Origin: Escherichia coli
GTDB lineage: Bacteria; Pseudomonadota; Gammaproteobacteria; Enterobacterales; Enterobacteriaceae
Assembly (NCBI RefSeq): GCF_003018115.1
Contig: NZ_CP027457.1
DNA: 64,000 nucleotides
Direction: 5' to 3' (one strand)
In this document: positions 24,001 to 27,000 of the stretch, piece after piece
Position numbering within the stretch: the first letter of the stretch is position 1
How the letters are laid out: every line of letters begins with the position of its first letter
Program-made: the position numbers

Positions 24001-27000
24001 CTCATCCCGTTACCAACATGCTTTGCCCATTTCGTCAGTTGCCGTTCCGCAAGTCGTTTTAACTCACCCTGCGTCATCTGGCGCTCAATCCCTCTGGTAC
24101 GCATTTCGAGGCAGATGTGGTACAGCACAGGCTGTGGCCACGGGTATTTATCACTCCCGTCGTATCGCCAGGATTCATTGCGCCAGCGCCGGTACTCTTC
24201 CATCACGGCATCCACCGTAAGACCAAATGGATTTGCCCCACTCTCCGAAATCAGCGCAACAAACTCAGCCAGGTCCGGGGGCCACGTTTCACCCGCCCGG
24301 CAGCGGTCCATGCACTGACGACAGACCTGCCGGATTTGCTGTTCAGTCATCGCACCAATCTGGGCAATCCAGAGCTTCGAAGGTGCGGCCCCGTTCTTCT
24401 GAGTCCAGCGGTTCGAATACACCTCCCCCATAAGCTCCCACAGCTTCCAGGCCGTTTCCGTTGCTGATAAATCCGTTTTCACGTTCCCACTGTTCGCGTG
24501 CTGCCCGGATTTCCTGAACTGCCCGTGATGCCGTGCCACCTGATGCTGCATGGCTTACCCCCTTGCTGACTGGTTTTACCTGTGCCCTGACGTGCTGCAC
24601 GTGACGGGCAAATTTCTGCTCCCACTGAACCTGCGTGAAAACCTTCCCCTCCGCCATCCAGTAATCCCGGAATGCGGCAAGCTCAGCAGGTGTAAATTCC
24701 GGCTCAGGCAGAGCCATACCCCACACTGCTGCCCGTTGTCGAAAATCCGGCGACGGCTGCCAGACAGTAGTCATCGAAAATTTCCCGATCGGTTCGCTCA
24801 GGCCGTCCAGGTATTCAGGTTCGGCTGTCTGCAACGGCGCACCATTCGACTCACTGGTCGGAATACTCTCGCGCGCGTTATGTGTGGGGTTTAATTCTGT
24901 ATCTGTATCTTTATCTGTCGTGACTTGTCGTGACAGATGCGTGACACGTCGTGACTCATCGTGACAATCAGCATTATGTTTCCGCAGCTTTTCCCGCTCC
25001 CGCTGCGCTCTCTTGCGCTCTGCCGGGGATTTTGCCGTTTGCGAAACGTTACCATTGTCCTCTTTCAGCACCTGACGTTTTTCCCATCCGGAAATAAGGT
25101 CACCATCCAGAACCCGCCCCTGCATTGCATGCAAAATTGAATCAATTACGTCTTCCGTCACATCAAGCGCACTTGCTAAATCTTCCGTCGTGACATCAAT
25201 GTGACCACGTAGTGACACGCCGTGACATGTCGTGACATTTCGTGACGCGCTCACCAGAAGGTGGATATACACTGCCATCACTGTTGCGATTGGCTGTCCT
25301 GAGACCCTGGCAATAGTTCGCCACTTGGGGTCATTTGGCATGTCATGCCACAATCTGAGCCAGGCATTAGCCATACTCACCTCTTCTGATACCGAACTTT
25401 ACCCACGAACTTCCGGAAGAAATCCGGTATAAATATTGTTGGTCAATGTACAACAACAGCATTACCAGGCTGACCACCACTGTTAGTCAGGGTGCCCCAG
25501 GCGATCGCTACAGCGACAAAATCATCCACATCTTTCACCAGCCGATCCCGTCGTTCGACGATCTCCCGGTAATATTCAGAACTGTGACTGCGCATACGGG
25601 CCACCAGCAAAGGCGGCATCGCCTTTTCGATCGCCGGTAACAGCGCCTGAATTTTTTCAACAGCATCAGGCGTATCCTTCTCCACCCAGCGGAAAATTTT
25701 CTGGGTATTACGGGCCAGGGCTTCCGGATGGCTGTCGTCGTACAGTTCCGGGAACGTCATCCCCAGTTCGAAATAAGTCCGGGCTATTTCAGCTGCGGGA
25801 ACTTTCTCACCGTCCGGATATGCCCAGGCATTCATCGCCATGCGGATGTGTTCATGTTTGATTTTCATGAATCATTTTTCCTTTCGTTCGAGGTGTTATC
25901 CTTCTTTTTGTAAAGTTCTGGGTTCAACGATAGTTTTCCCTTGGAGTATGCAACTGCTTCAGCAGCCCTCCCCTTGGGAACTATTTCGCCGGGACGCTTA
26001 CGCCACATGTATATAGCTTCTCGGGTTACCCCATAAAAATCAGCGACTCTTTGGACAGAACCAAAAAACTGGACAAGTTCATCAACTCGCATTTCGCCCC
26101 CTTAAAACTAAGTATTTTTAGATTAAAGGGTAATTTTTTTTAGGTCAATACAATCTAAAATAATTTATATTCAATTCGCGGGAGAAAATAATGGAAAGCC
26201 TTGGCATTAGGCTTAAGAAACTCAGAAAAGACAAAGGGCTGACCCAAGTTGAACTTGGCAAGCTTTCTGGCGTAACTGGGGTAACAATAGGATACTGGGA
26301 GAAAGATCTAAACGAACCAGGTAGCAAAGCTCTTAGTAAATTAGCCCTAGCACTAGGCACTACTGAGTCCTATCTCCTGTATGGAGTATCATCACCTGAA
26401 TCATCCCTTGTGCAGAAAAATCCAGGTACCCAAATCCCATACCTTTCTTGGGGAGAAGCGATTTCTTTCCTAATATTAAAAGGAGAGAAAACTATGGGAA
26501 ATGTCGACAGGATCACCACATTCTTTGATGTCAAGGAGGGAGATTTTGCCGTTTCAATGCCTGATGATACTATGCACAATCCATCAGGGTCCCCAAGCAT
26601 TCCAGTTGGAGCCACAGTGATCATGAGGCCTGGCGAAAAATATAAAAATGGTAGCATCGTCGCTGTAATAGTCCCAGATCCACTCACAAACGAACCATCC
26701 ATGACTATAAAAAAATTAGTTATTGATGGAAAGCTCGTGTACTTAGCCCCCCTTAACCCACGCTATCAATCATCCTTACTTACACCGGAATGTAACATCG
26801 TTGCTGTAGCAAAAGGTGTTCAGTTCAGCCTCTAGCTCCCGCTTTGCCCTGTAATCAGAGGTCGGCTTTGCCGGCCTTTTATTTTAAAAATATTTATATT
26901 TAACTTGACGACAAAACTAAATATTCTTATATTCATTGCAACCCACCCCGCTTCACAGAATGCAGGGCAATACCTAGAGTTACCAGGCAGTGGTCAGGGG

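What the first reader, a model, noticed from the sequence alone, without database searches (positions are those of the whole stretch)
24919..25246. Two separated iteron arrays of CGTGAC repeats with about 10-bp periodicity inside the O-like gene
Five and six direct repeats, phased about one helical turn apart, lie about 220 bp apart within the initiator coding sequence. Lambda ori has one array plus an AT-rich region. This is the likely replication origin; two arrays are unusual and could reflect a bipartite ori.
Basis: seen in the sequence. Interest (0 to 1): 0.45.

Follow-up and report, generated by a model that had tools for sequence, protein, structure and literature searches.

The report
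Two-part iteron origin inside initiator gene
Two clusters of a 6-base repeat inside a prophage replication-initiator gene are real, act at the DNA level, and recur (with different repeat words) in distant phage relatives; this marks a probable two-part replication origin that I could not find described for this initiator family.

Summary
On the + strand, CGTGAC occurs 5 times at 24919-24965 (array B). It occurs 4 times exactly, plus two 5/6 variants, at 25189-25246 (array A). All copies point the same way, are spaced 10-12 bp apart and fall in all three reading frames. They lie inside the initiator gene (24343-25374, minus strand) of a lambdoid E. coli prophage.

With the protein held fixed, synonymous recoding gives about 0.9 copies; 9 are observed. 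Relatives in Pseudomonas, Aeromonas and Ralstonia phages and in metagenomic viruses keep the layout but use other words (GCAACG, GTGACG, GAACGC, TAACGC). Of 71 distinct loci, 55 have both arrays and 15 have only B.

Array B is followed by an A+T-rich, purine-rich (GATAMA)n stretch (window 24888-24918). Third-codon-position GC drops there from 0.61 to 0.23. Array A has no such flank.

Best reading: array B plus the AT box is a lambda-like core origin. Array A is an accessory cluster of initiator sites written into a variable loop of the DNA-binding domain. It tends to lie in helical register with B, and in some clades it ends in an inverted copy.

No binding or origin assay exists, and whether A stimulates or restrains initiation is open. 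This is a new variant of a known kind. The N-domain matches no Pfam family, and my searches found no description of its origin.

The parts
24343..25374 (-). Replication initiator gene in the lambda-O position (PGAP: 'DnaT-like ssDNA-binding domain-containing protein'). N-domain about aa 1-100, basic helix and linker about aa 100-160, C-terminal DnaT-type domain aa 199-265.
   Evidence: ORF. RefSeq annotation of the 100% identical E. coli RM10466 locus. Pfam DnaT PF17948, E 7e-17, and nothing else. PHROG 'replication initiation protein' families. AF2 model of aa 1-160.
24919..24965 (-). Array B: five exact GTCACG (CGTGAC on +), spaced 10, 11, 10, 10 bp, in the codons of the inter-domain linker (aa about 137-152). 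Proposed core-origin iterons.
   Evidence: Hexamers invariant while spacers vary in Evi, Tritos, 204576, phita81A and pAEv1818. An equivalent array is present in 70 of 71 distinct relatives. Copy number is 4-6 among near-identical E. coli prophages.
24888..24918 (-). A+T-rich, purine-rich box directly 3' of array B in gene orientation (ACAGATAAAGATACAGATACAGAATTAAACC; encodes DKDTDTELN). Proposed DNA-unwinding element.
   Evidence: Lowest GC in the gene (0.35). In 80 relatives the 40 nt after array B have GC 0.39 against 0.56 for the gene and are 72% purine on the coding strand. GC3 is 0.23 against 0.61, Wilcoxon P 1e-14.
25189..25246 (-). Array A: six same-strand copies (4 exact GTCACG plus GTCACA and GTCACT), spaced 10, 10, 9, 12, 11 bp in gene direction (11, 12, 9, 10, 10 read along the + strand). 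It lies in the codons for aa about 43-62, a variable loop of the N-domain. Proposed accessory initiator-binding array.
   Evidence: Evi and Tritos lack exactly 21 bp (two repeats) here. The homologous position carries the class-specific hexamer in 55 of 71 relatives. The loop has indels in the protein alignment and lower pLDDT in the model. There is no A+T-rich flank: GC 0.53 against 0.56.
25157..25162 (+). Single inverted 5/6 copy (GTCACA on +, that is TGTGAC in gene direction), 27 bp 3' of array A.
   Evidence: An exact inverted copy sits at the homologous place in 19 of 22 GTCACG-class loci. The GCAACG and GTGACG classes have 10-bp palindromes there with compensatory change.
24896..24916 (.). 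Mosaic junction. To its right (N-domain plus both arrays) the DNA is about 85% identical to phages Evi and Tritos. To its left (C-domain plus P) it is 86-98% identical to Rac/ydaU-type (DUF1376) initiator genes.
   Evidence: query 554-1038 versus 1-551/574. Sister module L116.
23889..24350 (-). Lambda-P-like helicase-loader gene, overlapping the initiator stop by 8 nt. Presumed partner of the C-terminal domain.
   Evidence: RefSeq 'replication protein P'. ORF.

Best explanation
The two arrays are binding sites (iterons) for the N-terminal domain of the initiator protein that is encoded across them. Together with the A+T-rich box they form the prophage's replication origin.

Array B (5 x GTCACG, one per helical turn) plus the adjacent (GATAMA)n box is the core. 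Initiator monomers would line one face of the helix, distort it and open the AT box. The C-terminal DnaT-type domain would then bring in the P-DnaB complex, as in lambda.

Array A (6 copies, about 22 helical turns upstream, written into a variable surface loop of the DNA-binding domain) is an accessory cluster of the same sites. It has no unwinding element of its own. Most likely it joins array B in one looped or wrapped nucleoprotein complex, which makes the origin bipartite.

Shown: the repeats are under DNA-level selection, they co-vary with the N-domain, the layout is conserved, and the AT box is selected at synonymous sites.

Inferred: protein binding, melting site, looping, and whether array A stimulates or restrains initiation.
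For: 1. The number of copies far exceeds both chance and coding needs.
2. Hexamer columns are more conserved than spacers or the rest of the gene. Invariant fraction for hexamer / spacer / rest: GTCACG class 0.57 / 0.13 / 0.43, GTGACG 0.72 / 0.26 / 0.44, GAACGC 0.61 / 0.29 / 0.27 (alignment).
3. The same layout carries different words in relatives: GTCACG in E. coli, Pseudomonas and Aeromonas phages (62-86% aa identity); GCAACG in Ralstonia phage Hennie and its relatives; GTGACG; (C)GAACGC; TAACGC. Both arrays always use the same word within a locus.
4. Only the N-domain is constant with the word. Downstream partners differ: lambda P here, a helicase in pAEv1818, a 600-aa protein in phi1. The DnaT C-domain occurs in only 2 of 19 relatives.
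5. The N-domain plus both arrays recombine as one module, with the junction at the AT box.
6. The A+T-rich, purine-skewed box follows array B in 69 of 80 loci, and GC3 is 0.23 against 0.61. No such box follows array A.
7. A and B are within 0.15 turn of each other at 10.45 bp/turn in 67% of 55 distinct patterns. The shuffled mean is 39% and the maximum 53%.
8. The N-domain model is compact and helical with a C-terminal hairpin. The top fold matches, none significant, are winged-helix regulators.
Against: No experiment exists for any member that I could find. Binding by the initiator is therefore an inference from co-variation and linkage.

Array A is absent or degenerate in about 15 of 71 relatives, so it cannot be essential to the family's mechanism.

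The helical-register signal is a tendency only. Within the GTCACG class the spacings scatter, the lineages are not independent, and the period was chosen after looking.

In three classes array A carries an inverted copy or palindrome. That looks more like an operator than an origin iteron.

The fold search gave no significant match.
Confidence: 0.6

Rival explanations
1. Array B plus the AT box alone is the origin. Array A is a regulatory site for the same protein. It could act as an intragenic operator or roadblock that limits read-through into the rest of O and P. Alternatively it could be a titrating or handcuffing array that restrains initiation, like the second iteron arrays (incA, incC) and inverted half-iteron operators of P1, F, R6K and pPS10 plasmids (own knowledge).
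For: Array A has no A+T-rich flank. It is dispensable in about a fifth of relatives. In 30 of 34 loci of three classes it ends in an inverted copy, with palindromes GTCACGTGAC, GCAACGTTGC and GTGACGTCAC that keep symmetry through compensatory change. Array B never has one. Array A's copy number is fixed among close E. coli relatives while B's varies, which suggests different constraints.
Against: A lytic-cycle phage origin has little obvious need for copy-number restraint. The inverted copy is missing in the CGAACG and GTAACG classes (3 of 35) and is only 5/6 in this window. The tendency towards helical register with B fits cooperation as well as handcuffing. There are no expression data.
Confidence: 0.25
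2. The arrays are bound by something other than the initiator, such as a host protein or another phage regulator, or they serve a non-replicative role such as recombination or packaging.
For: No binding data exist. The hexamers share an ACG core across classes, so a common factor is conceivable.
Against: The same word is kept across E. coli, Pseudomonas and Aeromonas hosts with different neighbouring genes. The word changes with N-domain divergence. The arrays always lie inside the N-domain module and recombine with it. The position and AT box match the lambda origin plan (PMC7466680). No other cluster of the word exists in the 64-kb window.
Confidence: 0.07
3. The repeats have no DNA-level function. 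They would be slippage products, or the trace of a repetitive peptide, tolerated in disordered parts of the protein.
For: Both arrays lie in parts of the protein that tolerate length change: 21-bp and 10-bp-step indels, and lower pLDDT.
Against: The 10-11 bp period puts copies in all three frames, so no peptide repeat is encoded. Synonymous resampling gives 0.9 against 9 observed. Hexamers are conserved and spacers are not. The layout is retained with changed words over large evolutionary distances.
Confidence: 0.03

Closest known systems
Bacteriophage lambda ori (and the Stx-phage 6-iteron variant) inside gene O
   Same: The origin lies in the middle of the initiator gene, between the DNA-binding and partner-binding halves. 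A direct-repeat array is followed on one side by an A+T-rich tract. The N-domain and iterons form one specificity module. The partner is a P-type helicase loader (PMC7466680; window).
   Different: Lambda has one array of four iterons, six in Stx phages. From my own knowledge these are about 19 bp long, have internal dyad symmetry and are bound by O dimers. Here the core is 6 bp, occurs once per helical turn and has no dyad in array B. A second array sits 223 bp upstream inside the DNA-binding-domain codons. The N-domain is not detectably related to lambda O, as there is no Pfam Phage_rep_O hit.
Bacillus phage SPP1 gp38 (replisome organizer) with oriL inside gene 38 and oriR elsewhere
   Same: The initiator binds direct repeats located within its own gene, next to an A+T-rich unwinding element. 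A second, separate set of the same binding sites exists (PMC6316719).
   Different: SPP1's second site (oriR) is about 13 kb away, is intergenic and has its own AT-rich element. Here the second array is 223 bp away in the same gene and has none. There is no Pfam Phage_rep_org_N match here, although some GenBank records use that name.
PICI/SaPI origins: two sets of short iterons
   Same: Short (about 6-bp) repeats form two sets that belong to one origin (PMC6092414).
   Different: In PICIs the two sets flank the AT-rich melting region and lie outside the rep gene. Here the AT box lies outside the pair, 3' of array B. The DNA between the arrays is ordinary coding sequence with GC about 0.5.
Iteron plasmids with a second array and inverted half-iteron operators (P1 incC/incA, F ori2/incC, R6K, pPS10). 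From own knowledge, not checked here.
   Same: There are two arrays of the same initiator site, and only one is adjacent to the unwinding element. Inverted copies of the iteron are associated with one array.
   Different: Plasmid arrays flank the rep gene in non-coding DNA, the iterons are 17-22 bp, and the second array is a proven negative regulator. Nothing of that is known here.
Bipartite chromosomal origins (Bacillus subtilis, Helicobacter pylori oriC1/oriC2) and phage P4 ori/crr. From own knowledge, not checked here.
   Same: There are two initiator-box clusters separated by a few hundred bp or more, with the unwinding element next to one cluster and cooperation by looping.
   Different: Those clusters flank or lie far from the initiator gene and use DnaA or P4 alpha. 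Here both clusters are inside the coding sequence of the initiator.

Membership tests
Lambda-type phage origin (iterons plus AT-rich tract within the initiator gene) | Origin elements located inside the initiator gene, at the boundary between the N- and C-terminal domains | tested here: met
   Array B and the AT box lie at aa about 137-162, between the modelled N-domain and the DnaT-type C-domain. The mosaic junction is at the same place.
Lambda-type phage origin (iterons plus AT-rich tract within the initiator gene) | Array of direct repeats flanked on one side by an A+T-rich tract | tested here: met
   Five repeats, then 31 bp at GC about 0.3. This is general in relatives.
Lambda-type phage origin (iterons plus AT-rich tract within the initiator gene) | Iterons of about 19 bp with internal dyad symmetry (dimer sites), forming one contiguous array | tested here: not met
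   The conserved core is 6 bp with a 10-11 bp period and variable spacers. There are two arrays 223 bp apart.
Lambda-type phage origin (iterons plus AT-rich tract within the initiator gene) | Initiator homologous to lambda O (Pfam Phage_rep_O) | tested here: not met
   The Pfam scan of the protein and of 18 relatives returns only DnaT (in 2 of 19), and nothing for the N-domain.
Lambda-type phage origin (iterons plus AT-rich tract within the initiator gene) | Initiator binds the repeats and replication starts there | not testable with these tools
   Needs EMSA or footprinting and origin mapping. The only support here is co-variation of word and N-domain.
Phage replisome organizer (SPP1 gp38 type, Pfam Phage_rep_org_N PF09681) | N-terminal domain matches the family profile | tested here: not met
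   No hit at E<=10 for the window protein, and none at E<=0.1 in 19 relatives. There is only a weak PHROG 'DnaD-like helicase loader' hit, E 7e-8.
PICI/SaPI-type origin | Two iteron sets flanking the AT-rich melting region | tested here: not met
   The AT box is 3' of array B, not between the arrays. GC between the arrays is 0.40-0.65, and GC after array A is 0.53 on average in relatives.
Iteron-plasmid control array (incA/incC type) | A second array of the same iteron, without an unwinding element, that inhibits initiation | tested here: inconclusive
   The presence of a second array without an AT flank is met. An inhibitory role is not testable here. Inverted copies at array A in three classes hint at an operator.
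DnaT (primosomal protein I) family | DnaT C-terminal ssDNA-binding domain; full-length equivalog score | tested here: inconclusive
   The Pfam DnaT domain is present at aa 199-265, E 7e-17. The NCBIfam DnaT equivalog scores 94 bits against a cut-off of 201. So the protein contains the domain but is not DnaT.

The most novel reading that the evidence does not exclude
Array A is an obligatory half of a looped, helically phased bipartite origin. On this reading the initiator's DNA-binding domain carries its own recognition sites within the codons of one of its surface loops. Protein specificity and both site arrays would then sit in one module of about 450 bp that can change its recognition word as a unit. 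That would explain the 5 or more specificity classes (GTCACG, GCAACG, GTGACG, GAACGC, TAACGC). It would also explain why the amino-acid sequence of the loop (NVT..CHG.. / NAT..CNA.. / NVT..GDA..) follows the DNA word rather than the reverse.
Probability: 0.3. Interest if true: 0.7.

Novelty: new variant of a known kind. Interest (0 to 1): 0.55.

Why it matters
This initiator module is common. The exact gene arrangement occurs in 657 of 5,426 complete E. coli genomes, including EHEC-type strains. Even so, it matches no Pfam family, and I found no paper that describes its origin.

The comparative data give a testable origin model with clear parts: sites, an unwinding box and an accessory array. 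They also give a natural series of at least five matched protein/site specificities for studying how initiator and origin co-evolve.

It is a clean example of a regulatory DNA code overlaid on a protein code. The binding sites dictate the amino acids of a loop in the very domain presumed to read them.

Practically, it predicts which co-resident prophages in E. coli share or do not share origin specificity. It also shows where replication should start on induction.

Tried and rejected
- Peptide-repeat or slippage explanation. Rejected: the copies use three frames, and the codon-resampling test gives 0.9 expected against 9 observed.
- DnaT-domain idea. I considered that the (GATAMA)n box is the ssDNA ligand of the DnaT-type C-domain, as DnaA trios are for DnaA. 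Not supported: the box is general in the family, but the DnaT domain is in only 2 of 19 relatives.
- Second independent origin at array A. There is a slightly low-GC stretch at 25120-25179 in this window, but relatives have no AT flank after array A.
- PICI-like 'two sets flanking an AT region'. The geometry does not fit.
- Known RNA: none in Rfam.
- Internal promoters and terminators are at chance level.
- A distant second cluster of the word, like SPP1 oriR: none in the 64-kb window.
- Solved-structure sequence search of the N-domain profile: nothing. Foldseek against PDB: no significant match.
- The search for related loci with the 9-sequence alignment failed for lack of a conserved stretch. 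A narrower alignment worked.
- Literature searches for iterons of this family, the word GTCACG, oriJ of Rac, and bipartite phage origins found no description.
- The JC1 paper was unrelated.
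Full report
**1. What is in the sequence**

The window matches an E. coli RM10466 prophage at 100% identity. The early-right region runs on the minus strand. In order it carries a cI/LexA-like repressor (26191-26835, +), cro (25865-26092, -), a YdaT-family gene in the cII position (25443-25868, -), the initiator (24343-25374, -; the ORF extends to a GTG at 25380) and a lambda-P-like gene (23889-24350, -).

The + strand carries CGTGAC at these positions:
- Array B: 24919, 24929, 24940, 24950, 24960.
- Array A: 25189, 25221, 25231, 25241, plus TGTGAC at 25200 and AGTGAC at 25212.

All copies are on the same strand. In the gene's direction the word is GTCACG. The spacing is 10-12 bp, and the copies fall in all three reading frames.

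**2. Is it more than chance or coding?**

The 64-kb window has 42 CGTGAC on both strands and no other cluster. Only 0.08 copies are expected in 328 nt, which gives a Poisson P of about 4e-16.

I then kept the protein fixed and redrew synonymous codons. This gave a mean of 0.9 copies, with a maximum of 5 in 20,000 draws. Permuting the gene's own synonymous codons gave a mean of 1.5 and a maximum of 6. Nine copies are observed. The repeats are therefore selected at the DNA level, and they constrain the protein rather than the other way round.

**3. The gene**

Pfam finds only a DnaT-type domain at aa 199-265 (E 7e-17). NCBIfam DnaT scores below its cut-off. PHROGs place the protein in 'replication initiation protein' families.

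The gene is a mosaic:
- Window 24896-25380 (N-domain and both arrays) is about 85% identical to phages Evi and Tritos.
- Window 24343-24916 (C-domain) is 86-98% identical to Rac/ydaU-type initiators, which have a different N-domain (DUF1376).
- The junction is the A+T-rich box next to array B.

The DUF1376-type sister gene (L116) has the same AT box. Its linker carries its own repeats (TGTTCAAAC), and it has no array in its N-domain.

**4. Close relatives**

In Evi, Tritos and phage 204576 the five hexamers of array B are unchanged while the 4-5 bp spacers differ. Array A is shorter by exactly 21 bp, that is two repeats. Among 80 near-identical E. coli prophage contigs, array B has 4-6 copies and array A always has 6.

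**5. Distant relatives**

A tblastn search with the N-domain finds Pseudomonas phages (phita81A, phi1; 62% aa identity) and Aeromonas phage pAEv1818 (67%). It also finds Ralstonia phages Hennie and Firinga (38%), uncultured viruses and cyanophages.

- The Pseudomonas and Aeromonas phages have the same word, GTCACG, in the same two places.
- Hennie has a different word, GCAACG, in the same two places: 5 + 4 copies, starting at gene nucleotides 129 and 400.
- IMG/VR relatives add the classes GTGACG, (C)GAACGC, TAACGC/GTAACG and GGAACG.

In a broad sample of 71 distinct loci, 55 have both arrays with the same word, 15 have only array B by the exact-word criterion, and one is unclear. By eye, a few of the 15 have two or fewer degenerate copies at the A position, and the rest have a short loop with none.

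Hexamer columns are more often invariant than spacer columns in every class. Neighbouring genes and C-terminal domains differ among loci that share a word. The only constant partner of the word is the N-domain. This is the main evidence that the N-domain reads the repeats. It is inference, not a binding assay.

**6. The two arrays are not equivalent**

Array B is followed directly by an A+T-rich, purine-rich stretch built from GATAAA/GATACA or GAGAAG units. In the window this is 24888-24918, the GC minimum of the gene.

Over 80 loci:
- The 40 nt after B have GC 0.39, against 0.56 for the gene, and are 72% purine on the coding strand.
- The drop is at least 0.1 in 69 loci.
- Third-codon-position GC falls from 0.61 to 0.23 (P 1e-14). 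The A+T-richness is therefore selected at synonymous sites and is not just a consequence of encoding an acidic linker.
- After array A, GC is 0.53.

Array B plus the box therefore has the anatomy of the lambda origin, which is iterons followed by an AT tract in the middle of the initiator gene (PMC7466680). Array A lacks an unwinding element.

**7. Where array A sits in the protein**

The AF2 model of aa 1-160 has mean pLDDT 73, with values above 90 for aa 20-40 and 60-90. It predicts helices at 16-25 and 29-45, then a less confident loop or hairpin at 46-62. Helices at 63-70 and 74-84 and a hairpin at 85-95 follow.

Array A encodes aa 43-62. This is also the segment with indels in the family alignment. 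Its amino-acid sequence follows the DNA word: SRNVT..CHG..RGH in the GTCACG class, SNATQCNADATRGN in GCAACG and SNVTHGDARVTRGD in GTGACG.

The fold search gave no significant match. The top of the list is mostly winged-helix regulators, which I treat as a weak hint only.

**8. Helical register**

Within each array the copies are phased: the resultant is 0.9-0.99 at 10.3-10.5 bp per turn. Between arrays, the mean phases agree within 0.15 turn at 10.45 bp/turn in 67% of 55 distinct patterns. Randomly shifted controls give a mean of 39% and a maximum of 53% in 500 trials.

In the window, all 11 sites fit one period of 10.41 bp with a resultant of 0.97. This is suggestive of same-face placement, as expected for looping or wrapping. 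Three cautions apply:
- The lineages are related.
- The period was chosen after looking.
- Several loci, including some of the GTCACG class, are out of register.

**9. An extra feature of array A**

In the GTCACG, GCAACG and GTGACG classes, 30 of 34 loci carry an inverted copy of the class word at or just 3' of array A. In two classes, and in some GTCACG members, this forms a 10-bp palindrome: GCAACGTTGC, GTGACGTCAC or GTCACGTGAC. The inverted half changes together with the word.

The CGAACG and GTAACG classes mostly lack it (3 of 35). The window has a 5/6 copy at 25157-25162. Array B never has one.

This resembles the inverted half-iteron operators of plasmid Rep systems (own knowledge). It is the main reason I keep a regulatory role for array A as a serious rival.

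**10. Mechanism proposed**

- Shown: DNA-level selection on both arrays; co-variation and linkage with the N-domain; a conserved two-array layout; and a synonymous-site-selected AT box next to array B only.
- Inferred by analogy with lambda and iteron replicons: N-domain monomers occupy one site per turn on arrays B and A. The two arrays join in one complex, looping about 220 bp of coding DNA. The AT box at 24888-24918 melts. The C-terminal domain recruits P-DnaB.
- Open: whether array A helps initiation (a bipartite origin) or restrains expression or initiation.

**11. Comparison and novelty**

The plan is lambda-like in position and in the AT flank. It differs in three ways:
- Site type: a 6-bp core once per turn, rather than lambda's longer iterons (about 19 bp dyads, from my own knowledge).
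- The protein family of the N-domain, which has no Pfam match.
- A second array embedded in the DNA-binding-domain codons.

Two-part initiator-site arrangements are known elsewhere. These include SPP1 oriL/oriR and PICI two-set origins. From my own knowledge they also include plasmid incA/incC arrays, P4 ori/crr and bipartite oriC. None has this geometry.

My literature searches found no description of this family's origin. The library lacks most subscription-journal papers, however, including the Weigel and Seitz 2006 review of phage replication modules. Prior mention therefore cannot be excluded.

I rate it a new variant of a known kind, with moderate interest.

Noticed in passing
window 25157-25162; relatives L085, L095-L105, L108-L109, L171-L196 at gene nt about 140-215: An inverted copy of the class hexamer sits at or just 3' of array A in 30 of 34 loci of three classes. 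It forms palindromes GTCACGTGAC, GCAACGTTGC and GTGACGTCAC that keep symmetry through compensatory change. There is none at array B, and it is rare in the CGAACG and GTAACG classes.
   Followed up: partly
window 24888-24918 and the 40 nt after array B in 80 relatives: A conserved (GATAMA)n / GAGAAG purine-rich AT box. It is more conserved across specificity classes than the iteron word itself. It is shared with the unrelated DUF1376-type initiator, and it coincides with the mosaic recombination junction (24896-24916).
   Followed up: partly
L116 (E. coli O26 FWSEC0001, DUF1376-type initiator with the same C-terminal half and P gene): The sister initiator type has its own repeats (TGTTCAAAC at gene nt 308, 341 and 374, plus an inverted TGTTTGAACA) in the linker only, followed by the same AT box. 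It has no array in its N-domain codons.
   Followed up: partly
19 full-length relatives (alignment A5): The C-terminal halves of proteins sharing this N-domain are unrelated to each other. The DnaT-type domain occurs in only 2 of 19, and no Pfam family covers the N-domain in any of them.
   Followed up: yes
L004-L083 (near-identical E. coli prophage contigs): Array B is polymorphic (4, 5 or 6 copies, and a 1-bp spacer shift) among prophages with 92-100% identical N-domains. Array A is fixed at six copies.
   Followed up: yes
window 25374-25380: The mechanical ORF starts at GTG 25380 (MSMANAW...). RefSeq and all relatives start at ATG 25374 (MANAW...), which is preceded by a GAGG Shine-Dalgarno sequence. 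The ATG is the likely start.
   Followed up: partly
window 24600-24605: One isolated CGTGAC in the C-terminal half of the gene. It has no phased neighbours and is probably chance.
   Followed up: no
L088 (ctOK67), L090-L092 (Microcystis and Cylindrospermopsis phages), L150, L162: The most distant relatives, and some closer ones, have a clear array B plus AT box but a short N-domain loop without array A. This suggests that array A arose by expansion in that loop, or was lost by deletion.
   Followed up: partly
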